Source: Candidatus Marinacidobacterium sp. (lineage in GTDB: Bacteria > Acidobacteriota > Vicinamibacteria > Marinacidobacterales > Marinacidobacteraceae). Taken from it: a DNA stretch of 64,000 nucleotides. Below, one piece after another: positions 21,389 through 51,728 of the stretch. A program made the translations under genes and the position numbers. Location of the stretch: assembly GCA_965220965.1 (NCBI GenBank), contig OZ244852.1:2779472-2843471 (forward strand), in the 5' to 3' direction. The notes under the pieces are model-generated. The model saw only the letters and a program-made list of their open reading frames with translations, did not search any database and had not been told where the DNA came from. The number at the start of each line of letters is the position of its first letter. The stretch's first letter is position 1.

Positions 21389-22282
21389 GTGACTTTCGGG
21401 CGTTCGCTCGGCCGCGGCGCCAAGCAGGCTCTTGCCGGCGCGGCGCTGAACAGATTCCTGCTGCAGAAATACGGGCGAACCTGGGACGATGCTCCGATAC
21501 CGGGGGTTGGCCTCAAGGATCTGGATGGCCGCGCCTTCGAGGAGTTTCGCCAGCGCGGCGCGAAGAGTCAGCGACTGCCGACGGACATTCTGAGCGAGCC
21601 CGACGATGGGGTCATCGAGAGGCTCCAGTTGCGCGAGGCTGCGCTCCTGAAGCGGGCCGCAGTGCTGCTCTTTCATCCCGCGCCGCATCGGGTCGTGATG
21701 GAGGCCTGCGTCAAGATCGGCTATTTCCGTGGATCCGAGTTGCTGTTTCAGGACGTGGTCGAAGGCGACCTGTTCACGCAGGTCGACCGGGCCATGGACC
21801 TGCTGTTCACGAAGTACACGCGAGCGCTGGTTTCGTACGACGGCGTGTACCGCGTCGAGAATGTACCGGTGCCGCGCGCCGCCATGCGCGAGGCGATCAT
21901 CAATGCGGTCATTCATCGGGATTACGCCAGCGCAACCACGATTCAGATCCGCGTCCACGACGACCGGATCGCCATCTGGAATGCTGTGCAGTTGCCCTCC
22001 GACTGGATTGCGGATCAGCGCGCCGGGAAACTGTCGTCAAGGCCCCACAACCCCCGGATCGCCTACGCCTTTTTCCGGGCCGGGATGATCGAAGCGTGGG
22101 GACGTGGCGTCCAGCGCATCGCGGACCTGTGTCTGGAGGCTGGCAACCCGCGGCCAGAGTGGGAGCTCCAGTCCGGTGGCGACGGACTCTGGCTGCGATT
22201 TCCGTTTTCGGCGACCTACCGGTCCGCCGATCCGGCGGCGCATGGCGCGGAGGACAGCGGCGGCGCGCCGGTTCCGAACTAG
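21389..22282 (+). CDS. AlbA_2/HATPase_c_4 family protein (putative RecG-like ATPase/regulator), N-terminally truncated paralogue
   Basis: It aligns to the middle and C-terminal part of the full-length paralogue at 47178..48608 (…REAVANAICHRDY… vs …REAIINAVIHRDY…). The N-terminal AlbA_2 domain is missing. It lies directly downstream of ssrA, and it may be a pseudogene remnant. Confidence 0.6.
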   Translation: MTFGRSLGRGAKQALAGAALNRFLLQKYGRTWDDAPIPGVGLKDLDGRAFEEFRQRGAKSQRLPTDILSEPDDGVIERLQLREAALLKRAAVLLFHPAPHRVVMEACVKIGYFRGSELLFQDVVEGDLFTQVDRAMDLLFTKYTRALVSYDGVYRVENVPVPRAAMREAIINAVIHRDYASATTIQIRVHDDRIAIWNAVQLPSDWIADQRAGKLSSRPHNPRIAYAFFRAGMIEAWGRGVQRIADLCLEAGNPRPEWELQSGGDGLWLRFPFSATYRSADPAAHGAEDSGGAPVPN

Positions 22283-22905: not shown

Positions 22906-24105
22906 ATGAAGAACAACCGCAGAAGCTTCTTCGGGTCCCTGGCGGGGCTCGGAGCGGCGGCGGCGGCGCCTCGCTCGCTGTTCGCCCAGTCCGGCGGAGG
23001 GGGCAGCGAACCCGTCCCCGTCGTCCACCCCGACCTGAACACGCTCAAGCCGCGGCGGGTCAACGAAGACGGGGTCAACAAGGAGTTCCACATCATCTGC
23101 GAGCCGGTCAAGCGCGAATTCGTGCCCGGCCGCACGATCGACTGCTGGGGCTTCAACGGGACCTGCCCCGGTCCGACGATCGAGGTCACCCAGGGAGACC
23201 GGGTGCGGCTCGTCGTCGAAAACCGGCTGCCGGAAGCCTTCTCGATGCACTGGCACGGCTTCGAGATCCCGATCGACATGGACGGCGTGCCCGGAGTCAC
23301 CCAGGACCCGATCCCGCCGGGCGGGACGTTCGTCTACGAGTTCGACCTCCATCAGCACGGCACGTTCTTCTACCACTCCCACTTCCCGATGCAGGAGCTG
23401 ATGGGCATGATCGGCCTGTTCATCATGCATCCCAAGGAGGCCTACCGGCCGACCGTGGACCGGGACTACGGGATGATCCTCCAGACGTGGGACCTCAAGC
23501 CGAACGCCACGATCCCGGCCACCCTCGGGATGAACTTCAACTGGCTCACGATCAACGGGCGGGCCGGACCGCATACGACCCCGCTGCTCGCCAAGCTGGG
23601 TGAGCGCGTGCGGTTGCGGATGGTCAACCTCAGCTCGATGCACCATCCGATCCACCTCCACGGCTTCACCTTCCAGACGGTGGGCACCGAGGGTGGACGG
23701 ATGCCGGAGTCCACCTGGGAACCGGGCAACACCGTCCTCGTGGGCGTCGCGCAGGCGCGGGACGTCGAGTTCAAGGCGGAGTACCCCGGCGACTGGATGA
23801 TCCACTGCCACCTGCCGCACCACATGATGAACCAGATGGTCGCGCTCGTGGGGCCGCGTCACATGGCCCACATGGAGCACGGTGGCGGCCAGATGGATGC
23901 CGCTGCGGCCATGGAGGTGCCCGGGTTCCGTCAGGACATGTTCATGCCCATGGACGAAGCGGTTGCGAAGCCCGAGACCCGCGGCATGCGGCCGACCTGG
24001 TCGGCGGGCATCATGGGCATGATGAGCGTGGTTCGGGTTCTGGACGAGGCGACCTTCGACTCGATCCAGGCCGAGATCGCCGCCGGCGGCGGAGGAGACG
24101 CGTGA
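22906..24105 (+). CDS. Multicopper oxidase (CopA/CueO-like), Tat-secreted
   Basis: It has a Tat motif (NRRSFFGSLAGLGAAAAAP). Copper ligand motifs HWHG, HSH, HPIHLHG and HCHLPHHMMNQM are present, and there is a Met-rich C-terminal segment (MAHMEHGGGQMD...MFMPMD). An RBS gggaga precedes the start. Confidence 0.9.
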   Translation: MKNNRRSFFGSLAGLGAAAAAPRSLFAQSGGGGSEPVPVVHPDLNTLKPRRVNEDGVNKEFHIICEPVKREFVPGRTIDCWGFNGTCPGPTIEVTQGDRVRLVVENRLPEAFSMHWHGFEIPIDMDGVPGVTQDPIPPGGTFVYEFDLHQHGTFFYHSHFPMQELMGMIGLFIMHPKEAYRPTVDRDYGMILQTWDLKPNATIPATLGMNFNWLTINGRAGPHTTPLLAKLGERVRLRMVNLSSMHHPIHLHGFTFQTVGTEGGRMPESTWEPGNTVLVGVAQARDVEFKAEYPGDWMIHCHLPHHMMNQMVALVGPRHMAHMEHGGGQMDAAAAMEVPGFRQDMFMPMDEAVAKPETRGMRPTWSAGIMGMMSVVRVLDEATFDSIQAEIAAGGGGDA

Positions 24106-25421
24106 TGGTTCGCCTTCCAATGACCCTGGGAGCCGCCGCGCTGGCGGTCGGGCTGGCCGCGCCCGCGGCGCTCGCCCAGGAAATGACCCTCGAAGACCTC
24201 CAGCGGATCGCGCTGGAGCGCAACCCGACCCTCGTCCAGGTCGATGGGCGGCTGCGCGCCGCGATGGCCGACTCGGACCAGGCCGGACTCTGGCCCAACG
24301 TCCACGTCGCCTACGCAACGGAGACGGTGAACGGCCACGAGTCCCACGGCGTCTTCTTCCGGCAGACGCTTCCCATCAGCGGCATCATCGGAGCTTCCCG
24401 CAGGGTGCACGACCGCGACGCCGATCTCGCCCGGGCCCTCGTCCAGGAGCAGCAGATGAAGGTGGCGACTTCGGTCCGGCTGCTCTATCGCGAGGCGCTC
24501 ATGGCCGAGCACCACATTGCGCTCCAGGAAGAAGTCGTCGAGCATCTCGAGGAAGTCCTGGTGACGATCAAGCAGCTCATGAACGTCGGGCTCGAGGACC
24601 CGACCGATGTGCTCGAGACCGAGATCAAGATCCAGCATGCGCGCCTCGACCTCAGCGAGGAGCGCCTCGAGCAGCGGCACATCTGGACCGAGCTGGCGCA
24701 GATGGTGGGCGACCCCTCGCTCACGATGCAGCCGCTGGCGGGGGACGCGCTCGAGCTGCCGCCCGAGCTCGATTACGACACGGAGCTCGACCGGATGCTG
24801 ACGAACAGTCCGGAACTCGAGAAGGTGCGGATGGACATCGCGCGTGGCGAGGCCGCCGTCGGGTTCGAGCGCACCGAGACGCGGCCCGACCTCGGAGTCA
24901 CGCTCGGTCGCCGCTACAACCGCGGACTCATCGGGTTCGGTCACGAAACCGAGGTTCTTCCGTCCTGGGAGCTGGCGCTGGAGCTTGATCTTTCCGCACC
25001 GATCTGGAACCGGAACCAGCACGGGATCCGGGCCGCCGAAGAAGATGTTCGCATGGCGCGGGCGGATCTCGACCGCGAAATCCTCCACCTTCGGTCCAAG
25101 TTCGCGGACGAGTTCCACGAGTACCAGATCGAACGGGATGAGGCCCGGGTCTACCGCGAGGAGATCCTGCCCCGGGCCGAGCAGGTCCACGAACTGGCGC
25201 TCGGTCGGTACATGGATTTCGGCGAGGACTACGGCGAAGTGCTCGAGGCGAAGGGGCACATCCTCGAGGTGCGCGGCGAGATCCTCCATTCGCTGTCCGA
25301 GGCCTGGCATCACACCGTGATGATTGAGGGGATGCTGCTCCACGGCGGCCTCCTGGTTCCGGAGTTCGAGATCCTCGAGAACACCGGGATGGGCAGCGCC
25401 GACACGCCGTACACCAGGTAG
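24102..25421 (+). CDS. TolC-like outer-membrane efflux protein (OMF family)
   Basis: Its start overlaps the multicopper oxidase stop (ATGA). It has a signal peptide and the two coiled-coil/beta-barrel repeats typical of CusC/TolC. Confidence 0.82.
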   Translation: MMVRLPMTLGAAALAVGLAAPAALAQEMTLEDLQRIALERNPTLVQVDGRLRAAMADSDQAGLWPNVHVAYATETVNGHESHGVFFRQTLPISGIIGASRRVHDRDADLARALVQEQQMKVATSVRLLYREALMAEHHIALQEEVVEHLEEVLVTIKQLMNVGLEDPTDVLETEIKIQHARLDLSEERLEQRHIWTELAQMVGDPSLTMQPLAGDALELPPELDYDTELDRMLTNSPELEKVRMDIARGEAAVGFERTETRPDLGVTLGRRYNRGLIGFGHETEVLPSWELALELDLSAPIWNRNQHGIRAAEEDVRMARADLDREILHLRSKFADEFHEYQIERDEARVYREEILPRAEQVHELALGRYMDFGEDYGEVLEAKGHILEVRGEILHSLSEAWHHTVMIEGMLLHGGLLVPEFEILENTGMGSADTPYTR

Positions 25422-25548: not shown

Positions 25549-25737
25549 CTTAACAGTCTGTTGATGAAGTCCCGTGCAGCGCCGAGAGCGGTGAGGCGCC
25601 CGGCCGGCAAGGCGCGTGAGCGAGGAATATCGGCAATATTCCGAGCGAAACGGAACGATGAGCGCCCCACAGGGGCGCGGTTCGGCCGGGATGGATCGCC
25701 GCTCGAACGCCGCGTGACTTTGTCAACAGGCTGTTAG
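25549..25737 (-). repeat. ~190 bp MITE-like element, copy 1 (inverted relative to copy 2)
   Basis: It is ~90% identical to the reverse complement of 48593..48782. Its termini form an imperfect 22-bp inverted repeat (CTTAACAGTCTGTTGATGAAGTC ... GACTTTGTCAACAGGCTGTTAG). It has internal hairpins GGAATATCGGCAATATTCC and GCGCCCCACAGGGGCGC. Confidence 0.6.
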
Positions 25738-25789
25738 CATGCGGCAAGCCGCGTCCGACGCGGCTCACCAGCGAAGAAGGAGGTGGCGT

Positions 25790-28109
25790 ATGCGCCGTTT
25801 CTTCGGGATGGTCTTTCGGACGGCGTTTGTCGTCCTGATGCCGGCGACGGTCCTTGCGGGGGGGCGTTGCGGCCCAGGCGCCTGGCGTTTCGGGCTCGGT
25901 GGTCGACCAGCAGAGCCTCGCGCTGCCCGGCGTCCGGATCGAGCTTCACACCGAAGACGGGGCCCGGGTCGAGGTCGCCATCACCCGCGGTGACGGCTCG
26001 TTCGCCATCGACGTCGCCCCCGGGACCTATTCGCTGACGGCGCACCTCGATGGCTTCGAGCCGGTCGAGCGCGCCGTGACCGTCACGTCGGAAGGGGTCG
26101 TCGTCGACCTGCTCATGGCGATCCGTCCGTTCGAGCAGACGCTCCCCGTGACCGCCGCGCTCCCGGAGATGGCGACGGAGCAGGTCGTCCCTTCGCGTCA
26201 GGTCGAGCAGCGGGTCGCCCAGGACCTCGCGCTCTCGCTCCGGGAGCAGGCCGGGGTGACGGCCCTGCGGCGAGGCCAGGTGAACCTCGACCCTTCGGTG
26301 CGCGGCCTCTACGCCGAACAGATCGGCGTCTTCGTGGACGGCACGCGCACCTTTGCGGCGGGACCGGCGCGGATGGACTCCGAACTGAGCCATGTCAGCC
26401 CCCACGCGCTCCAGTCGATGCGGGTCGTTCGCGGACCGTTCGCGCTGACCTGGGGCGCCGGAACGCTCAGCGCCATCCGCGTCGAGACCTTCAAGCCCGA
26501 CTTTCGCGCGGACGGGTTCCGCTTCGGCGGGCGGGCCGGCTTCAACTACGGGAGCAACGGGGCCACCAAGGACGGCTACGGCAGCTTCTGGGGCAGCAGT
26601 GAGCGGTTCCGGTTCACCCTCCAGCACAACACCCGCGCCGGCGACGACTACACCGACGGCAACGGAGAGGCGGTGCCCGGCGGCTACGAGTCGTTCGACA
26701 CCCAGTGGAGCGTCGGAGGCCACCTGACCGAAGACACCCTCCTTGAGTACAGCGGCGGCCACCAGCAGCAGAACGACCTCGAGTATCCGGGCCGGATCCT
26801 CGACGCCACCTTCTTCACCACGAATTCCCATGCGGTGGAGCTGACGCACGCTCCGGACGAGGGCCTCGTCCGCGAAGTTGTGGCGCAGGCCTACCGGAAC
26901 GCGAAAGACCACCGGATGAACAACGACGACAAGCCGACGGCGATGGACATGCCGGGGCGCAGGCCTCCCTTCGCCCTCGACGTGGACCTTCCCGCCGAGG
27001 CGACCACCACCGGCGGCCGGTTCCACGTCGCCATGGGCCGGGGCGCCCTCCGCTCCCGGATCGGCGGCGACATCTACCGGTTGGATCAGACGGCGACCCG
27101 GACGATCTCCCGGCGCAGCAACGACATGGTCCTGTTCAGCGACCGGGTCTGGCCTGACGCCCGGGTGAGCAACGCCGGCGCCTACGCGCAGCTCGTGCGT
27201 CGGTTCGCCTCGGCGACGCTCGGCGGGACCGTGCGCCTCGACCATGAGCGCGCCGATGTTGGCGAGGTCTCTCCGTACTTCCGGGACAACGCCAGCCCCG
27301 ACCTGTCACAGCGCAACACGAACCTGAGCGCCGCCGCCAGCCTGAGCTGGAACGTGCGGCCCGGCGTGGTCGTGAACCTCGGCGCCGGCCGCGCCGTGCG
27401 CAACCCGTCGGCGCTCGAGCGCTACTCCGACCGCTTCCCCGCAGTGAAGTTCCAGACCGCCGCCGAGTTCATGGGGTCTCCGGAGCTCACGCCCGAGAAG
27501 AGCCGGGAGCTCAACGCCGGCGCCGTCATCGTGTACCGCGACCTGGTGGTCGAGGCCGACGTGTTTCACCGGGTCATCGACGACTACATCACCGTGGCGC
27601 CCGATCCGACGCTGACGAAGCGGCTCCCGCTCAGCCCGCCGGTGGTCTTCCGCTACGTGCAAGGGGGGCAGGCGCGCTACATCGGGGGCGACCTGCGCGT
27701 CCAGATCTTCGTGAACTCCTGGCTGACCGCCCACAACACCGTCTCGTATGTCCAGGGAGACGACACCCGTTTCGATGAACCCCTGTTCGGCCTTCCCGGC
27801 CTCGAAAACCGGTTCGGGCTGCGGGCCGATGCGCCAGGCCGGAACGTCTGGGCCGAGTTGGTCGTTGCGTCGCAGGCGGAGCAGGACCGGGTCGCGGCCC
27901 AGCGGTTCGAGGTTTCCACCAAGGGATGGACCACGATCGATCTGAACGCCGGCTTCGCCCTCCGGGATGGGATGGAGATCCGGGCGGGCGTCCAGAACCT
28001 GACGAACGCGTTCTACGCCAACCACCTCAACTCGTTCAACCCGTTCACGAGGCTGCGCATCGCCGAGGTGGGACGCAGCGTTTACGCCGGCGTGACGGTC
28101 GGTTTCTGA
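25790..28109 (+). CDS. TonB-dependent receptor with N-terminal carboxypeptidase-regulatory-like domain; reading frame interrupted at a G7 tract (25858..25864)
   Basis: A strong RBS aaggagg sits 8 nt before the ATG at 25790. The signal peptide (MRRFFGMVFRTAFVVLMPATVLAGG) is in frame A. The rest of the protein (AAQAPGVSGSVVDQ...TBDR barrel ending ...AGVTVGF) is in frame B, as ORF 25854..28109. Deleting one G from the homopolymer joins the two frames seamlessly. Confidence 0.75.
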
Positions 28110-38105: not shown

Positions 38106-38206
38106 CGACTCTCCTTCGGGGTTGCGGCGCCGGGCCCGGATTCCGGCGCGGTGGTGGGGGCCGTCCACGGAGGGACGGGTGTCGGGCGCGGCCGGGGAAG
38201 CGCCGG

Positions 38207-38280
38207 TAGCGGGGGGCGGACTTGAACCGCCGACCTAAGGGTTATGAGTCCTTCGCTCTCACCATCTGAGCTACCCCGCC
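38207..38280 (-). tRNA. tRNA-Met (anticodon CAT), elongator-type
   Basis: The reverse complement reads GGCGGGGTAGCTCAGATGGTGAGAGCGAAGGACTCATAACCCTTAGGTCGGCGGTTCAAGTCCGCCCCCCGCT. The D-, anticodon- and T-arms are canonical. The 1-72 pair appears to be G·U, which is unusual and may indicate a ±1 boundary error. Confidence 0.75.
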
Positions 38281-38404
38281 GTCCGGACTCGCCGCAACCG
38301 ACCGATATTAGCAGCCCGCTGATGAAGTCGCGCGGCGATGGCGCCCGCCTTGCGTCTTCTCCGGTGCAGAGCCGCCCGCGATGGGTGGCGAGGGGACAAC
38401 ATTC

Positions 38405-47177: not shown

Positions 47178-48608
47178 ATGTCCGGTACCGTTAGGGCTCC
47201 GATGACGCGCGGACAGATCGCCGAATGGGTGGCCGCAGGAGAGTCAGAGACCCAGGAGTTCAAGCGCACAACCGGCCAGCGGCGAGCGGCGGCCAAGGCT
47301 GTCTGCGGGATGCTGAACCATCGCGGCGGGCGGGTTCTGTTCGGCGTGACTCCTGCGGGCGAAGTCGCCGGGCAGCGAACTGGAAGGGACACGCAGGAGG
47401 ACATTTCCCAGGAGCTGCAGCAGATCGACCCGCCGGTCTTCCCCGACATCGACCAGGTCGACGTCGGGGACTCGCTGGTCGTGATCGTCGTGACCGTTCC
47501 CACCGGGACGAATCGTCCGTACAGCTATCGGGGCCAGGCGTACCGGCGCGTGGGCAGGACGACGCTGTCCCTCTCCGGGGACGAGTACAACCGGATGTTG
47601 CTGGAGCGGCTCCACGGTGACTCGCGCTGGGAGACCGAGGAGGCCGCCGGGTGGGACATCGCCGATCTCGATCACGATCAGATCGCCGCAACGGCCGAAG
47701 AGGCGGTGCGGCGCGGGCGCTTGGAAGAACCCGGTACGCGGGCGGCGGAGCCGCTGCTGCGCGGCCTCGGCCTGCTGCGTGGGCGAACGGTTCTGCGGGC
47801 GGCGGTCGCGCTCTTCGGCCGCCGACAACGGCTCGCCACGGAGTACCCGCAGTGTCTCCTGAGGGTCGCCAGGTTTCGGGGGACGACTCGGACGGCGTTC
47901 CTCGACAACCGACAGGTCCACGGCAACGCCTTCGATCTGCTCCACGCCGCGCAGCGCTTCCTGGTGGAGAGCTTGCCGATCGCTGGCCGTGTTGTCCCGC
48001 ACCTCTTCGAGCGGGTCGATGATCCGCTGTATCCGCCGGAGGCCCTGCGGGAGGCCGTGGCGAATGCGATCTGTCATCGCGACTATGCGGCGGGAGGCGG
48101 ATCGATCGGGATCGGCATCTACGACGACCGCCTCGAAGTTACGTCAACCGGCGGACTTCCCTTCGGACTGACGCCGGAGATGCTGTTCGAGCCGCACGAG
48201 TCCCGGCCCTGGAATCCCCTGATCGCCGGCGTCTTCTTCCGTCGGGGGATCATCGAAAACTGGGGTCGCGGAACGCTCCGGATGGCGGAGCTCACCGAGA
48301 GCGCCGGACTTCCTCGCCCGGAGATCGAGGACCAGGCGGGCGCCGTTACGGTGCGCTTCCGACCAGGCCGCTACATCGCCCCCCAGCGGATCGGACGCGA
48401 TCTGACCGAACGACAACGGGCGATCCTGACGATCCTCGGCGAGGCGCCGGAGGGGGTCGCCGTGCGGGACCTCCGGGCTCGTCTGGTGAATGGCTCCACG
48501 GCGCGGCAGGTCGGCAAGGACCTCCAGACACTCCGGGCCCTCGGACTGGCTCTCCCCGCCGGACGGGGACGGGGCGCGCGCTGGCGCCGAGCTCAAGCAG
48601 CCCGTTGA
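47178..48608 (+). CDS. AlbA_2 (divergent-AAA) + HATPase_c_4 + C-terminal wHTH protein (RecG-C-terminal-like putative ATPase/transcriptional regulator; Schlafen-like)
   Basis: The N-terminus (…ESETQEFKR…LNHRGGRVLFGV…) matches AlbA_2. The middle region (…ALREAVANAICHRDY…) matches HATPase_c_4. The C-terminal …LTERQRAILTILGEAPEGVAVRDL… looks like a wHTH. It is full-length relative to the truncated paralogue at 21389. Confidence 0.8.
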   Translation: MSGTVRAPMTRGQIAEWVAAGESETQEFKRTTGQRRAAAKAVCGMLNHRGGRVLFGVTPAGEVAGQRTGRDTQEDISQELQQIDPPVFPDIDQVDVGDSLVVIVVTVPTGTNRPYSYRGQAYRRVGRTTLSLSGDEYNRMLLERLHGDSRWETEEAAGWDIADLDHDQIAATAEEAVRRGRLEEPGTRAAEPLLRGLGLLRGRTVLRAAVALFGRRQRLATEYPQCLLRVARFRGTTRTAFLDNRQVHGNAFDLLHAAQRFLVESLPIAGRVVPHLFERVDDPLYPPEALREAVANAICHRDYAAGGGSIGIGIYDDRLEVTSTGGLPFGLTPEMLFEPHESRPWNPLIAGVFFRRGIIENWGRGTLRMAELTESAGLPRPEIEDQAGAVTVRFRPGRYIAPQRIGRDLTERQRAILTILGEAPEGVAVRDLRARLVNGSTARQVGKDLQTLRALGLALPAGRGRGARWRRAQAAR

Positions 48609-48782
48609 CAAAGTCCCGCGGCGTTCGAGCGGCGATGCATCCCGCCCGAACCACGCCCCTTCGGGGCGCTCATCGTTGCGTTTCGCTCGGAATATTCCCG
48701 ATATTCCTCGCTCACGCGCCTTGTCGGCCGGGCGCCTCACCGCTCTCGGCGCTGCACGCGACCTTATCAACGGACTGCTAGG
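48593..48782 (+). repeat. ~190 bp MITE-like element, copy 2; its left end overlaps the last codons of the AlbA_2 gene
   Basis: See copy 1. It begins …AGCAGCCCGTTGACAAAGTC and ends GACCTTATCAACGGACTGCTAGG. Confidence 0.6.
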
Positions 48783-48822
48783 CGGCGCTGGGTGTGGGAC
48801 GACGCCACGGAGGTTGGTGAGG

Positions 48823-48938
48823 CCATTGGGAAACCATTCGGGCCAATTCCGGAACAATTCGGAACAATTCGGGGCCAATTCGGAACCATTCGCGGAACCA
48901 TTCGGAACAATTCCGGGACAATTCGGAACCATTCGAGG
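48823..48938. repeat. Tandem array of ~11 degenerate 10-11-bp units (consensus ~AAC(A/C)ATTCGG), i.e. ~10.5-bp phasing
   Basis: ccattgggaaa|ccattcggg|ccaattccgg|aacaattcgg|aacaattcgggg|ccaattcgg|aaccattcgcgg|aaccattcgg|aacaattccggg|acaattcgg|aaccattcgagg is seen directly. The antisense ORFs across it are repeat artefacts. Confidence 0.8.
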
Positions 48939-48943
48939 CGATC

Positions 48944-49213
48944 ATGCCCATCACGCCCGGTTCGACCGCCAAGCGAAAGATCAGGCTGCGCCAGGAGGCG
49001 CGGCGGACGCCGGTAGCCCCGCCTGACGACACGGTGGATCAGGAACTCCAGCGTGACGGCGAGGACCACGTCGAGGCCGGACCGGCCACGGCGGTGTCCG
49101 CGGCCTTCGGGCTGCTCGCTCGGCCGGGCGCGGCGCCACAGTCCATCGAGGCGCTGAACGAAGCGATCAGCGCCGGATGGGCCGGTGAGACGCCTCCATC
49201 AGGAAAGCGCTGA
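48944..49213 (+). CDS. Hypothetical small protein (weak ParD/RHH-antitoxin-like C-terminus: …SIEALNEAISAGWAGE…)
   Basis: The ORF begins immediately after the tandem array. The similarity is only to the eye, so both its coding status and its family are uncertain. Confidence 0.25.
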   Translation: MPITPGSTAKRKIRLRQEARRTPVAPPDDTVDQELQRDGEDHVEAGPATAVSAAFGLLARPGAAPQSIEALNEAISAGWAGETPPSGKR

Positions 49214-49336
49214 ACGCGATCTGGCGCGTCAATCAGGGTCAGACGCGCGCGGCAATCAGGATGAGACGCTGAACGCCGGTCGCGAGGGCGGGTGGGCGAG
49301 CCTTCACTGGGGCGCGGTGTGATGTCTCGCTCAAGT

Positions 49337-49379
49337 CATTGGTGCACATCACACGTGACATGGGCAATATGCACCAATG
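49337..49379. promoter_or_regulatory. Inverted repeat CATTGGTGCACAT-N17-ATATGCACCAATG (12/13 match) enclosing CACGTG; the right arm contains the start codon of the COG1373 ATPase
   Basis: Seen directly in the sequence. An operator or translational-control function is inference. Confidence 0.35.
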
Positions 49380-50573
49380 GTCCCTCGTCGAGCGCGAACT
49401 CTCGTCGACCGGATGCTCCGCCTGGAGGCCGCTGTTGGTCTGCTTGGGCCGCGCCAGGCGGGGAAGACGACGCTCGCGCTCGCGATCGCAGCCTCCCGGG
49501 ACGCCGTCTACCTGGACCTCGAGCGGCGCGAGGACCGCGCCGCCCTCGCCGACCCGGCGCGGTTCTTGGCCTCGCAGGAGGACCGGCTGGTCATCCTCGA
49601 TGAAGTGGGCCACGTTCCCGAGCTCTTTGGGGAGCTCCGGGGCCTGATCGACGACGGCCGCCGCCGCGACCGTGGCCTGAGCCGCTTTCTCATCCTCGGA
49701 TCGGCCGCCGTTCCTCTCCTGCGCCAGTCGGAGAGTCTCGCCGGCCGCATCGGCTGGGTGGAGCTTGGACCCCTCGACGTTCTCGAGGTCGACGACGCGG
49801 AACCGGTGGAGCGGCTCTGGGTTCGAGGGGGCCTGCCGCGCAGCTACCTCGCCGAGACCGACGCCGACAGCCTCACGATCCGGACGAACCTGATCGGAAC
49901 GGTGCTGGGGCGCGACCTCCCGCACTTCGCCCCACGCCTCCCCATCGAGACCGTGGACCGGCTATGGGCGATGCTGGCCCATGGCCAGGGAACGCAGCTC
50001 AACCTCTCGCAATTGGCTGGAAGCCTTGGCGTGAGCACTCCCACCGTTGGCCGGTACGTGGATCTGCTCGTGGACCTTCTCCTCGTGCGTCGCCTTCCGC
50101 CCTGTCTCCCGAACCTCCGGAAGCGTCTCGTCAGGTCTCCCCGGCTCTACCTGCGGGATCCGGGGCTGCTCCACGCGCTGCTCGGCATCGGGGACCTGAA
50201 CGCCCTCCTTCGCCACCCCGTCGTCGGCGCAAGCTGGGAGGGCTTCGTGATCGAGACCCTCCTCGCCGCCGCTCCGCCGCGCACCCAGGCGTCCTTCTAC
50301 CGGACGGCGCGCGGCGCCGAAGTTGATCTGGTCCTCCACCTGCCCGGGCGCGCCACCCCCTGGGTGGTCGAGGTCCGCCACGGCGCGGCGCCGAAGCTCA
50401 CCCGCGGATTCCACTCCGCGTGTCACGATCTGGCGCCGGAGCGGGCGTTCGTGGTCCACGCGGGGTCCCGTCGCTTTCCGCTCCCAGGTGGCGCCGAGGC
50501 GATCCCCCTCCGGGCGATGGCGCGCCTGCTCGCTGGGAGCGCGGCCCCCGCCGGCGAGGCTCTCAAGGGTTGA
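49377..50573 (+). CDS. AAA+ ATPase of the COG1373 / DUF4143 family
   Basis: It has Walker A LLGPRQAGKTTLA and Walker B …LVILDEVGHVPELF. The C-terminal DUF4143-like region is rich in conserved Arg/Asp. Confidence 0.8.
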   Translation: MVPRRARTLVDRMLRLEAAVGLLGPRQAGKTTLALAIAASRDAVYLDLERREDRAALADPARFLASQEDRLVILDEVGHVPELFGELRGLIDDGRRRDRGLSRFLILGSAAVPLLRQSESLAGRIGWVELGPLDVLEVDDAEPVERLWVRGGLPRSYLAETDADSLTIRTNLIGTVLGRDLPHFAPRLPIETVDRLWAMLAHGQGTQLNLSQLAGSLGVSTPTVGRYVDLLVDLLLVRRLPPCLPNLRKRLVRSPRLYLRDPGLLHALLGIGDLNALLRHPVVGASWEGFVIETLLAAAPPRTQASFYRTARGAEVDLVLHLPGRATPWVVEVRHGAAPKLTRGFHSACHDLAPERAFVVHAGSRRFPLPGGAEAIPLRAMARLLAGSAAPAGEALKG

Positions 50574-50645
50574 ACGGGGTGTGGCGCGAACCGCCATCAG
50601 TCTCGCCGGGTCTTCTGACGCCGACGCCCCCCTGCGCTCCCTAAG

Positions 50646-51329
50646 TCAACCGCAGAGCGCGTCCAGAATCGGACCGACGACCGACTTTGCGCGACAGGTC
50701 TCCGCGGCGCGCCAGATCTCTGCTGGGCTCGCCTTCCGGTCCCACAGCGCGTCCCGCATCGCTTCGAGCGCCACATCCTTCCCCACGAGCCGACGGAAGC
50801 GAAAGCAGTCCACGACCGTCCGGGCCGGGTTTGTGATCCAGGCGGGCGCGCCCTCGAACTCGATGCGCTCGACGCCATAGCGGAGCGACGCCCCGGAGAA
50901 GCGGATGACCCGTACGGGAAGCTCGGGGATCCGGGGCGCGCGGGCCTTGTGCGGGATCGCGATCCACACGCGTCGCGGGAGCTGGGTCCCAAGCTCGTGA
51001 ACGCTCAGCGCGGTCAGCAGGCAGACGATGCCGCTCGGGACGCGCGCGCAGACCGCCGCTTCGGTGTGGTGCTCAGTCACCTCCGCGTCACGCCAGCGAT
51101 ACAGCCCTCTCGCCACCCGCTCAACCGAGCCGTCTTCCCTGAGTCGCCGGAGAGTGCGCGCACTCATGCCGGCGGCGAACGCGTCCCTACGCCGGAAGAA
51201 GGCGGCTCGGCGCAGGTTCGGTTCCGGTTGCTGTGGACGTTCGGAAACGTCGGCAACAAGAGCTGGGCGCCGACTTTTTGGGCGGAGTTCCCGGTCGACC
51301 TCGCGTTGCTCCGGCGACGGGACGGGCAC
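50646..51329 (-). CDS. AbiEi-family (type IV toxin-antitoxin antitoxin / transcriptional regulator) domain protein, without an adjacent AbiEii
   Basis: …AAFFRRRDAFAAGMSARTLRRLREDGSVERVARGLYRW… matches the AbiEi_4 N-terminal wHTH. The C-terminal domain is conserved. The start was trimmed to an in-frame GTG, which is uncertain; the ORF extends to 51476 but that stretch is Pro/Arg-rich. Confidence 0.68.
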   Translation of the reverse strand: MPVPSPEQREVDRELRPKSRRPALVADVSERPQQPEPNLRRAAFFRRRDAFAAGMSARTLRRLREDGSVERVARGLYRWRDAEVTEHHTEAAVCARVPSGIVCLLTALSVHELGTQLPRRVWIAIPHKARAPRIPELPVRVIRFSGASLRYGVERIEFEGAPAWITNPARTVVDCFRFRRLVGKDVALEAMRDALWDRKASPAEIWRAAETCRAKSVVGPILDALCG

Positions 51330-51728
51330 GGGACTCACGGTGGGGCGCCAGCCGGTGAACGGAGCCAGCGAGAGCCAGCCGAGTGGCTCGGCGCGGTTCG
51401 GAGGAAATTGCTCTCTCCCGCTGCGGTCGGACCGAACGGCGCCGCGAACGGTGACGCGAATCGCTACGCGCCGCAAACGGGATGGTGGCGCGCCCGCAGG
51501 GCCGTGGCCCTCGCGTGACCCTCCGCCTGGAACGGCCGCTCACGAAGTCGAATCACGTTCAGCCCGGGGGCGTCGCGGAGGAGCCCCGCTTCCTGGGAGG
51601 TGGCGCGGGCGGTGGCTTCGGCTTCCGAATGCGACCTGGATGGGGCGTCACCGCCCTCCCCGGTCGCTCGCGGCCCTGTCGACCCGGCGGAGGCACTGGT
51701 TCCCTTGCCACGGTAACTCCCTTACTCC

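What the first reader, a model, noticed from the sequence alone, without database searches (positions are those of the whole stretch)
25549..25737. MITE-like ~190-bp element with 22-bp terminal inverted repeats, two copies in inverted orientation
Copy 1 (25549..25737) and copy 2 (48593..48782, on the opposite strand) share ~90% identity. Each copy is bounded by imperfect terminal inverted repeats (TAACAG(T/C)CTGTTGA(T/C)(G/A)AAGTC), and each has an internal perfect hairpin GGAATAT-N3-5-ATATTCC plus a GC hairpin. Both copies are intergenic: copy 1 between the TolC-like gene and the TonB-dependent receptor, copy 2 abutting or overlapping the AlbA_2 gene stop. The structure fits a miniature inverted-repeat transposable element. 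Alternatively it could be a structured small RNA with two gene copies.
Basis: seen in the sequence. Interest (0 to 1): 0.58.

Follow-up and report, generated by a model that had tools for sequence, protein, structure and literature searches.

The report
Hairpin-shaped miniature transposon, two copies
The two 182-base repeats are copies of a small non-coding jumping-gene remnant (a MITE), an ordinary kind of element, but its family has not been described and keeps an unusually conserved folded centre across distant bacteria.

Summary
Window 25553-25734 (+) and 48597-48778 (-) are two 182-nt copies, 92% identical. Each has 19-21-bp imperfect terminal inverted repeats, TA-containing flanks and a whole-length hairpin. 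A third, about 30-nt solo end lies at 38309-38337. No Rfam family matches, and no transposase gene was found among about 34 window ORFs scanned.

The elements are not private to this genome. A search with the central hairpin pattern found about 25 relatives in a Deltaproteobacteria MAG, Desulfospira, Desulfosarcina (including an isolate's plasmid) and several metagenomes. These relatives are 157-165 nt long, sit at unrelated intergenic sites in either orientation relative to neighbouring genes, and often lie at contig ends.

One subfamily has direct TTA/TTA or TAA/TAA flanks in 3 of 3 complete copies. An orthologous gene spacer is 285 nt with the element and 85 nt without it in a relative. This supports the MITE reading, probably mobilised in trans by an IS5- or IS630-type transposase that was not found.

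The unusual feature is a 64-nt apical module (AAGGC-stem-GA-GGAATAT-loop-ATATTCC-GA-stem-AACGCA). It is shared by subfamilies whose terminal repeats differ, its stems covary, and it folds better on one strand. Its function is unknown. Verdict: a new MITE family of a known kind, of moderate interest.

The parts
25553..25734 (+). Copy 1 of the element, 182 nt between its flanks. It lies in the 368-nt spacer between the OEP/TolC-like gene and the TonB-receptor gene, in the same orientation as both.
   Evidence: (I1)
25550..25552 (.). Left flank TTA (TA at 25551-25552). It matches TTA at 25734-25736 (TA at 25735-25736) and is a candidate target-site duplication.
   Evidence: Read directly from the sequence. 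Ambiguous between a 2-bp TA and a 3-bp TTA duplication.
25553..25571 (+). Copy 1, 5' terminal inverted repeat ACAGTCTGTTGATGAAGTC.
25602..25666 (+). Copy 1, conserved 64-65-nt apical module (AAGGC / stems / tandem GA / GGAATAT hairpin / AACGA).
   Evidence: Covariance model R1: 72.1 bits, E 1e-15.
25624..25642 (+). Apical hairpin GGAATAT-CGGCA-ATATTCC, flanked by GA and GA (a tandem G.A motif).
25662..25678 (+). GC hairpin GCGCCCC-ACA-GGGGCGC. It is part of a 21-nt insertion found only in the window's subfamily.
   Evidence: Alignment of full-length elements.
25716..25734 (-). Copy 1, 3' terminal inverted repeat (ACAGCCTGTTGACAAAGTC on the minus strand).
48597..48778 (-). Copy 2 of the element, 182 nt, antisense to both neighbouring genes. 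Its 3' end supplies the last three codons and the stop codon of the AlbA_2 gene (47178-48608).
48665..48729 (-). Copy 2, conserved apical module.
   Evidence: R1: 77.7 bits, E 3.6e-17.
38309..38337 (+). Solo end, TAGCAGCCCGCTGATGAAGTCGCGCGGCG, about 83% identical to the 3' arm of copy 2. It is a truncated third copy next to tRNA-Met (38205-38280).
   Evidence: The alignment with the syntenic relative L050 breaks exactly here.

Best explanation
The two repeats, plus one truncated remnant, are copies of a non-autonomous DNA transposon (a MITE). Each is 182 bp and non-coding, with 19-21-bp imperfect terminal inverted repeats. They are inserted at TA-containing sites (TTAA/TTAG/CTAG type).

They belong to a superfamily of 157-186-nt elements for which I found no published description or annotation. 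In single-stranded form each element is one long hairpin. The most likely mobiliser is a DDE transposase acting in trans that duplicates TA or TWA. That points to an IS5-family (IS1031/IS427-like) or IS630-like enzyme encoded elsewhere in the genome.

Shown here:
- The repeat itself, its terminal repeats and its flanks.
- Lack of coding capacity.
- Membership of a multi-copy family that is dispersed and independent of gene orientation.
- Direct-repeat flanks in one subfamily.
- One filled-versus-empty orthologous gene spacer.

Inferred, not shown:
- The type of transposase.
- That the window copies themselves moved.
- The role of the centre.

The 64-nt apical module is conserved across subfamilies whose terminal repeats differ, and its stems covary. 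It is therefore probably selected as a folded single strand. It may be needed in cis for the element's propagation, or it may act on read-through transcripts by forming a very stable hairpin that affects RNA processing or stability, as described for ERIC and Correia elements.

In this window, copy 1 would place a hairpin of about -104 kcal/mol some 55 nt upstream of the TonB-receptor ribosome-binding site if the spacer is transcribed. Copy 2 has replaced the last codons of the AlbA_2 gene.
For: In the window:
- Repeat and terminal repeats.
- Both copies are exactly 182 nt, with TTA...TTA (or TA...TA) around copy 1.
- Solo-end remnant.
- No transposase or integrase among about 34 window ORFs scanned.
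- Another assembly of the same organism ends inside copy 1.

The wider family:
- The central-hairpin pattern found 4 copies at contig ends of MAG WY2.bin34, plus Desulfospira and Desulfosarcina genomes.
- It found about 17 real copies among 25 metagenome loci, many at contig ends.
- A full copy lies on the Desulfosarcina sp. BuS5 plasmid and is not annotated.
- A decayed copy occurs in a relative of the window organism.
- Near-identical copies have different flanks, for example L001 versus L002, and L028, L032 and L035.

Flanks and insertion evidence:
- Flanks are direct, not inverted, in the BuS5 subfamily: TTA/TTA (L021), TTA/TTA (L042) and TAA/TAA (L036 plus L022, read as two halves of one copy).
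- The orthologous GT2-rfbF spacer is about 285 nt with the 164-nt element (L045/L002) and about 85 nt without it (L049).
- An older, divergent copy downstream of rfbF is shared by both relatives.

Other MITE-like properties:
- Either orientation relative to neighbouring genes, and unrelated neighbours.
- No conserved reading frame; indels are not multiples of three.
Against: - No cognate insertion sequence with matching ends was found in the window, in about 0.5 Mb of fetched loci, or in the plasmid collection.
- TA, CTAG and TTAA are palindromic, so in most subfamilies the flanks could be part of the inverted repeat rather than duplications.
- Copy 2 has TA...TT flanks. The MAG copy has TTA...TAA.
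- There is no base-level empty site for either window copy, because the closest available relatives are not syntenic at copy 1.
- A centre that is more conserved than the ends is atypical for a MITE.
- The sense strand folds better in 9 of 9 full elements, which hints at a single-strand function.
Confidence: 0.8

Rival explanations
1. A structured small-RNA gene family. On this reading the long hairpin with its conserved apical module is the product, transcribed as a discrete RNA, and the inverted ends are simply its closing stem.
For: - The apical module is conserved across subfamilies. 13 of 20 modelled pairs change on both sides, and 91.8% of cells are paired against 74.5% in shuffles.
- Purine-rich asymmetric loops (AAGGC/AACGCA, tandem GA) are conserved.
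- In the core helices, G.U outnumbers A.C by 10 to 2.
- The sense strand is more stable in 9 of 9 elements, with 45 G.U pairs against 28.
- The window's terminal-repeat mismatches are all G.U on the sense strand.
Against: - No Rfam family matches.
- No promoter-like or terminator-like sites were found.
- Copies occur in either orientation next to unrelated genes, sometimes 3-37 nt from coding regions or overlapping a stop codon.
- Multi-copy, assembly-breaking behaviour, a solo end and direct-repeat flanks are transposon traits.
- A cruder count of arm mismatches shows no strand bias, 58 versus 51.
- Covariation would also arise in any element selected as a palindrome.
Confidence: 0.07
2. A hairpin element mobilised as single-stranded DNA by an HUH-type enzyme (REPIN/RAYT-like or IS200/IS605-derived), or recombined like an integron attC site, rather than by a DDE transposase.
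For: - The whole element is a hairpin with a conserved, asymmetric, strand-specific apical structure.
- No DDE partner was found.
Against: - The ends lack the GTAG head of REP sequences. They begin YTA-G....
- In REPINs the ends are the conserved part and the centre varies; here it is the reverse.
- The ends do not fit the attC R''/R' consensus (RYYYAAC / GTTRRRY), and the copies are not in cassette arrays.
- IS200/IS605 elements make no target duplication, yet direct TTA/TAA flanks occur in 3 of 3 complete copies of one subfamily.
- No Y1/HUH or integrase gene was found among the window ORFs scanned.
Confidence: 0.08
3. A shared cis-regulatory region (operator or leader) duplicated upstream of two genes, not a mobile element.
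For: Copy 1 lies 55 nt upstream of the TonB-receptor ribosome-binding site, in sense orientation.
Against: - Copy 2 is antisense and overlaps the 3' end of a gene.
- Neighbouring genes across the family are unrelated: rfbF, GNAT, ParA-region plasmid genes and others.
- The family occurs in distant taxa.
Confidence: 0.02

Closest known systems
ERIC / IRU elements of Enterobacteriaceae (about 127 bp; Sharples & Lloyd 1990, Hulton et al. 1991; classed as MITEs in PMC3184786)
   Same: - Small, non-coding and intergenic.
- The whole length is an imperfect palindrome that folds as one hairpin.
- Flanked by 5'-TA-3' (PMC3184786).
- Found in either orientation.
- From my own knowledge, ERIC also has a conserved central inverted repeat and orientation-dependent effects on mRNA.
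   Different: - No sequence similarity.
- Longer here (157-186 nt).
- Different hosts.
- Here the conserved centre is shared by subfamilies with clearly different ends.
Correia elements (CREE/NEMIS) of Neisseria
   Same: - A MITE with terminal inverted repeats.
- TA target duplication (my own knowledge).
- A functional internal site: an IHF site and promoters (PMC3184786).
- The transcribed hairpin is processed by RNase III (my own knowledge).
   Different: - No sequence similarity.
- The centre shows no match to the IHF-site consensus as I recall it.
- No promoter consensus was found.
Chunjie MITE of Geobacter uraniireducens Rf4 (Chen et al. 2008; summarised in PMC3184786)
   Same: - Delta-proteobacterial host.
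- 178-235 bp with 21-bp terminal repeats.
- Very stable predicted RNA hairpin, about -98 to -130 kcal/mol.
- Can sit inside operons.
   Different: - Chunjie is A+T-rich.
- Chunjie has 9-bp direct repeats; the present elements have 2-3-bp TA/TWA flanks, which points to a different transposase family.
IS5-family (IS1031/IS427 groups) and IS630-family insertion sequences, and Tourist-type MITEs of the related PIF/Harbinger superfamily
   Same: - Target and flank types: TA (IS630), TNA/TWA or YTAR (IS5 groups, Tourist).
- Ends beginning with G after the flank.
- These properties are recalled from the ISfinder classification and were not tested here.
   Different: No transposase or full-length insertion sequence with these ends was found, so the link rests on the flank pattern only.
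REPINs (REP doublets mobilised by RAYT)
   Same: Multi-copy intergenic hairpins that form in single-stranded DNA or RNA.
   Different: - No GTAG head.
- Longer than REPINs.
- The centre is conserved rather than the ends.
- Direct-repeat flanks are present.

Membership tests
MITE (non-autonomous DNA transposon) | Small size and no coding capacity. | tested here: met
   - Elements are 182 nt in the window and 157-165 nt in relatives.
- No conserved reading frame; indels of 1 nt and stems of variable length.
MITE (non-autonomous DNA transposon) | Terminal inverted repeats. | tested here: met
   - The 19-nt pattern occurs at both ends of both copies, with 0 matches expected by chance.
- Every subfamily has its own terminal repeats.
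MITE (non-autonomous DNA transposon) | Target-site duplication flanking each copy. | tested here: inconclusive
   - Window copy 1: TTA/TTA or TA/TA. Copy 2: TA/TT.
- BuS5 subfamily: direct TTA/TTA, TTA/TTA and TAA/TAA in 3 of 3 complete copies.
- In the other subfamilies the flanks are palindromic (CTAG, TTA..TAA) and could belong to the inverted repeat.
MITE (non-autonomous DNA transposon) | Multiple dispersed copies at unrelated sites. | tested here: met
   - Two copies plus a solo end in 64 kb.
- At least 5 copies in MAG WY2.bin34, 4-5 contig-end copies in Ga0163144/52, 4 copies in JACXTT01, and others.
MITE (non-autonomous DNA transposon) | Presence/absence polymorphism (filled versus empty site). 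| tested here: inconclusive
   - The orthologous GT2-rfbF spacer is 285 nt with the element and 85 nt without it in a relative with 83% identical rfbF protein. The flanks are too diverged for a base-level empty site.
- No comparison was possible for the window copies.
MITE (non-autonomous DNA transposon) | A cognate autonomous insertion sequence sharing the terminal repeats. | tested here: not met
   - None in the window, in the fetched loci or in the plasmid collection.
- The only insertion sequence met, in relative L052, has unrelated ends.
- The complete host genome could not be searched.
Rfam RNA families | A covariance-model match at the gathering score. | tested here: not met
   Only sub-threshold generic long-hairpin (plant microRNA precursor) matches were returned.
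Stand-alone small RNA gene | Its own promoter and terminator, and a fixed orientation or context. | tested here: not met
   - No promoter or terminator consensus.
- Either orientation and unrelated neighbours.
- Transcription itself is not testable with these tools.
REPIN / REP-RAYT | A conserved GTAG head with ends that are more conserved than the centre, and an associated RAYT gene. | tested here: not met
   - Ends begin YTA-G... and differ between subfamilies, while the centre is conserved.
- No RAYT among the window ORFs scanned.
Integron attC site | R'' RYYYAAC and R' GTTRRRY boxes, in cassette arrays next to intI. | tested here: not met
   - Copy 1 has CCTTAAC and GTTAGCA, which are imperfect. 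Copy 2 lacks both boxes.
- The copies are 23 kb apart with housekeeping genes between them and no integrase.

The most novel reading that the evidence does not exclude
The conserved 64-nt apical module may be a functional single-stranded (RNA or ssDNA) device that is itself the unit under selection. It is a paired stem interrupted by the asymmetric loops AAGGC/AACGCA and by tandem G.A pairs, capped by a 7-bp AT-rich hairpin.

It could be a protein-binding or processing signal required in cis for mobilisation. Alternatively it could be a portable RNA module that has moved between, or been kept in, miniature transposons with different ends in several bacterial lineages. If so, these elements would be carriers of a new structured nucleic-acid motif rather than inert transposon debris.
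Probability: 0.3. Interest if true: 0.6.

Novelty: new member of a known kind. Interest (0 to 1): 0.38.

Why it matters
For genome annotation, these hairpins explain several things: contig breaks in assemblies of this lineage and of sulfate-reducer MAGs, an altered 3' end of the AlbA_2 gene, and a very stable structure just upstream of a TonB-receptor gene.

More broadly, the family gives a defined, searchable model (a 64-nt core) for a set of miniature transposons in Desulfobacterota and an unnamed high-GC lineage.

The centre is conserved, covaries and is strand-biased across subfamilies with different ends. That raises a testable question: do some bacterial MITEs carry a functional structured module needed for their own spread, or one used by the host?

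Tried and rejected
- **Rfam.** Searches at gathering and at permissive thresholds, on three family members, gave nothing but generic hairpin noise.
- **Hammerhead-like reading.** The strings CGAAAC and GAUGAG in the window copies suggested it. They are in the wrong order and context, and are absent from the other subfamilies.
- **Small ORF or SD-ATG reading.** The MAG subfamily has AGGAGG-N5-ATG. It is not conserved in frame or length.
- **Core as the leader of a transposase gene.** The one case with a gene directly downstream (L011) encodes a GNAT acetyltransferase.
- **Composite transposon.** The solo end (38.3 kb) and copy 2 (48.8 kb) could bound a larger unit, but the genes between them are housekeeping-like (BNR protein, DinB, methyltransferases) and partly syntenic in relative L050.
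- **Search for the autonomous partner.**
  - Terminal-repeat searches in all fetched loci found only the elements themselves.
  - 38-40-nt end queries against plasmids gave chance hits only.
  - The DDE transposase found in relative L052 has unrelated ends.
- **Strand bias.** A crude alignment of the arms gave no G.U versus A.C bias, 58 to 51. Only the core helices (10 to 2) and the MFE comparison (45 to 28) lean towards the sense strand.
- **Viral contigs.** No match to the core pattern.
- **The window's own genome.** The 2.88-Mb contig could not be read, and it is not among the GTDB representative genomes.
- **The organism.** It could not be named.

Full report
**1. Checking the observation**

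The two stretches are a genuine repeat. The repeat finder reports arms 25551-25733 and 48598-48780, 183 nt and 92% complementary. This is far longer than any other repeat in the window. The pairwise alignment shows identity stopping abruptly at both ends.

The terminal repeat pattern ACAGYCTGTTGAYRAAGTC occurs at both ends of both copies, and shuffles expect none. Taking the terminal repeats as boundaries, each copy is exactly 182 nt: 25553-25734 on the plus strand and 48597-48778 on the minus strand.

Each copy folds end to end into a single hairpin, at -106.9 kcal/mol (z -7.6) and -114 kcal/mol (z -8.5).

The gene context is as described:
- Multicopper oxidase (22906-24105), then OEP/TolC-like (24102-25421), then copy 1, then a TonB-dependent receptor (25854-28109).
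- AlbA_2/HATPase_c_4 (47178-48608), then copy 2, then AAA_14/DUF4143 (49377-50573).

Copy 2 overlaps the last 12 nt of the AlbA_2 reading frame.

A fifth terminal-repeat match at 38311-38329 extends to a 29-nt solo end (38309-38337) beside tRNA-Met. It is a truncated third copy. The alignment with a syntenic relative breaks exactly at that point.

**2. What it is not**

- Rfam has no family for it, at gathering or at permissive thresholds, on the window copy or on two relatives. Only sub-threshold matches to generic long-hairpin microRNA precursors appear.
- Neither copy has a sigma-70-like promoter or an intrinsic-terminator-like site.
- About 34 ORFs across the window were scanned against Pfam. 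None is a transposase, integrase or HUH enzyme.
- The ends do not fit the integron attC boxes, and the copies are 23 kb apart with housekeeping genes between them.

**3. The wider family**

I scanned the species-representative genomes for the central hairpin with its flanking bases (GAGGAATAT-N5-ATATTCCGAG). This gave 12 loci.
- Four are in one Deltaproteobacteria MAG (WY2.bin34), all within 65 nt of a contig end. That is the signature of a repeat that breaks short-read assemblies.
- Two more are in Desulfospira joergensenii and a Desulfosarcina genome.
- The remaining six lack the conserved flanking motifs and look like chance matches.

The same pattern in the metagenome collection gave 25 loci. 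About 17 show the same architecture, again often at contig ends. No viral contig matched.

A blastn search of the plasmid collection found a complete, unannotated copy on the plasmid of the isolate Desulfosarcina sp. BuS5. Only one copy lies on that 108-kb plasmid.

A second assembly of the window's own organism ends inside copy 1. A relative of the window organism, with OEP protein 64% identical, carries a decayed copy.

**4. Anatomy across the family**

Full-length members fall into subfamilies:
- the window's own;
- the BuS5/Ga0164 group;
- the MAG WY2.bin34 group;
- JACXTT01;
- Ga0163144;
- AT-rich singletons.

Members are 157-165 nt long. The window's 182 nt is explained by a 21-nt insertion carrying the GC hairpin.

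Each subfamily has its own terminal repeats, for example TAGGGGCTGTTTCCAAAAAAA, TAGTGTACCGTCTCCGAAAT and TAGGGTTCGCGCAAAAATAAG. All, however, share a central module:

outer stem, AAGGC, inner stem, one or two pairs, GA, GGAATAT, 5-nt loop, ATATTCC, GA(G), inner stem, AACGCA (AACGA in the window), outer stem.

A covariance model of this 64-nt core (R1) recovers all members at 71-91 bits. It also finds divergent ones:
- AT-rich copies with inner stems of 12-14 bp.
- A copy in L002 whose apical stem is GCGUAU/AUACGU but keeps the tandem GA.
- The BuS5 copy, in which the tandem GA is replaced by U-A/A-U pairs.

On the model-derived alignment, 91.8% of cells pair, against 74.5% in shuffles. 13 of 20 pairs show changes on both sides, against 5-9 when partners are slid.

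Three caveats apply:
- The apical 7-bp stem is invariant largely because I searched with it.
- The alignment is fitted to the model.
- Any element selected as a palindrome would covary.

**5. Evidence for mobility**

(a) Near-identical copies lie in unrelated contexts within one genome or sample. L001 and L002 share 126 identical bases and then diverge. L028, L032 and L035 are another such set, as are four Ga0163144 contigs.

(b) Copies lie in either orientation relative to neighbours that are functionally unrelated. They are sometimes 3-37 nt from coding regions.

(c) Flanks always contain TA (TTA, TAA, CTA-G).
- In the BuS5 subfamily the flanking trinucleotides are direct repeats in 3 of 3 complete copies: TTA/TTA in L021, TTA/TTA in L042, and TAA/TAA in L036 plus L022. 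I read L036 and L022 as two halves of one copy because they share a private variant. An extension of the inverted repeat would instead give TTA..TAA.
- Window copy 1 has TTA..TTA, equally readable as TA..TA. Copy 2 has TA..TT.
- The MAG copy has TTA..TAA, which fits TA only.
- CTAG flanks are uninformative.

(d) There is one filled-versus-empty comparison. In the MAG's species the spacer between a GT2 glycosyltransferase and rfbF is about 285 nt and holds the 164-nt element, in three independent assemblies. In a relative with 83% identical rfbF the two genes are about 85 nt apart and the element is absent. The flanks are too diverged for a base-level junction. A divergent family member downstream of rfbF is present in both relatives, internally deleted in one of them, so insertions of different ages coexist.

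(e) The window holds a solo end, which is the usual decay product.

**6. Mechanism**

The simplest account is a MITE mobilised in trans by a DDE transposase that duplicates TA or TWA at YTAR-like targets. From my recollection of the ISfinder classification, this matches the IS5 family (IS1031 and IS427 groups, 2-4-bp duplications, ends beginning with G) or the IS630 family (TA). The eukaryotic relatives of IS5 (PIF/Harbinger) mobilise Tourist MITEs with TWA duplications.

The partner was not found. It is not in the window, not in the fetched loci, and not among plasmids. The one DDE element met in a relative has unrelated ends. This step is therefore inferred.

**7. The conserved centre**

In a typical MITE the ends are conserved and the interior drifts. 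Here the interior is shared by subfamilies with different ends, and it keeps asymmetric purine-rich loops between covarying stems.

The sense strand (the one reading GAGGAATAT...) is more stable in 9 of 9 full elements, by 3.5-27 kcal/mol, and has 45 G.U pairs against 28. In the core helices G.U outnumbers A.C by 10 to 2. All terminal-repeat mismatches in the window copies are G.U on that strand. Between the two copies, two terminal-repeat positions changed on both sides (A-U to G-C and U-A to C-G).

A cruder arm-alignment count shows no bias, 58 to 51, and the nine elements represent only four subfamilies. The strand signal is therefore suggestive, not proven.

I read it as selection on a folded single strand. 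The module is either a cis requirement for propagation, or it acts on read-through RNA, as reported for ERIC and Correia elements (PMC3184786). I put this at about 0.3.

**8. Consequences in the window**

Copy 1 sits in sense orientation in the 368-nt spacer between the OEP gene and the TonB-receptor gene, with its 3' end 55 nt from the ATG at 25790. If the spacer is transcribed, a hairpin of about -104 kcal/mol precedes the ribosome-binding site. Copy 2 is antisense to its neighbours and supplies the last three codons and the stop codon of the AlbA_2 gene.

**9. Comparison with known elements, and novelty**

- **ERIC/IRU** is the closest analogue. It is a whole-length palindrome with TA flanks and, from my own knowledge, a conserved central repeat.
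- **Correia** elements are similar in kind.
- **Chunjie**, the delta-proteobacterial MITE, resembles these elements in size and hairpin stability. It is A+T-rich and has 9-bp duplications, so it depends on a different transposase family.
- **REPINs** differ in having conserved ends with a GTAG head.

I found no published description or database annotation of this family. I classify it as a new member (a new family or superfamily) of a known kind.

**10. Limits**

- The complete genome of the window's organism could not be read, and it is not among the GTDB representative genomes. Its copy number and its transposases are therefore unknown.
- The organism belongs to an unnamed lineage.
- Transcription could not be tested.

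Noticed in passing
window 48832-48949: About 11 tandem copies of a 10-11-nt unit, GAAT(T/G)GTTCC(G). The spacing matches the DNA helical repeat and looks like iterons or an array of protein-binding sites. It lies 50 nt from copy 2, between the AlbA_2 gene and the AAA_14/DUF4143 gene (D1, 71). Copy 1 has no such array, so it is probably unrelated to the element.
   Followed up: partly
window 25776-25870: The TonB-dependent receptor appears frameshifted. GAAGGAGG plus ATG at 25790 encodes a signal-peptide-like MRRFFGMVFRTAFVVLMPATVLAGG in one frame. The receptor continues as GGVAAQAPGVSGSVVD in the next frame, after a run of G. This is either a homopolymer sequencing error or a pseudogene or phase-variable gene.
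   Followed up: partly
window 38309-38337: A solo terminal-repeat remnant of the element lies directly beside tRNA-Met (38205-38280). In the syntenic TARA relative L050 the 95%-identical alignment stops at this point and resumes about 25 nt later.
   Followed up: yes
window 47178-51476: Copy 2 sits in a defence-like neighbourhood: an AlbA_2/HATPase_c_4 protein, an AAA_14/DUF4143 ATPase and an AbiEi_4-domain protein (50646-51476, minus strand). A second HATPase_c_4 gene follows the tmRNA gene at 21389-22282.
   Followed up: no
L002 2195-2305 (= L045 2221-2306) and L049 4855-4930: A divergent family member has a covarying apical stem (GCGUAU/AUACGU) and AAAAACG-type ends. It lies downstream of rfbF in the MAG and, internally deleted, at the orthologous place in a relative with 83% identical rfbF protein. 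This is an old, shared insertion.
   Followed up: partly
L018 1630-1655 and 1770-1793; L033 831 and 4884: Some contigs carry two family members within 0.15-4 kb. In L018 a degenerate second core lies immediately upstream of the main one.
   Followed up: no
L001-L004, L002 1171-1334: In the MAG subfamily the core is followed by AGGAGG-N5-ATG, opening a short frame that reads out through the 3' end of the element. Insertions could therefore supply a ribosome-binding site and start codon to downstream sequence. This is not conserved in other subfamilies.
   Followed up: partly
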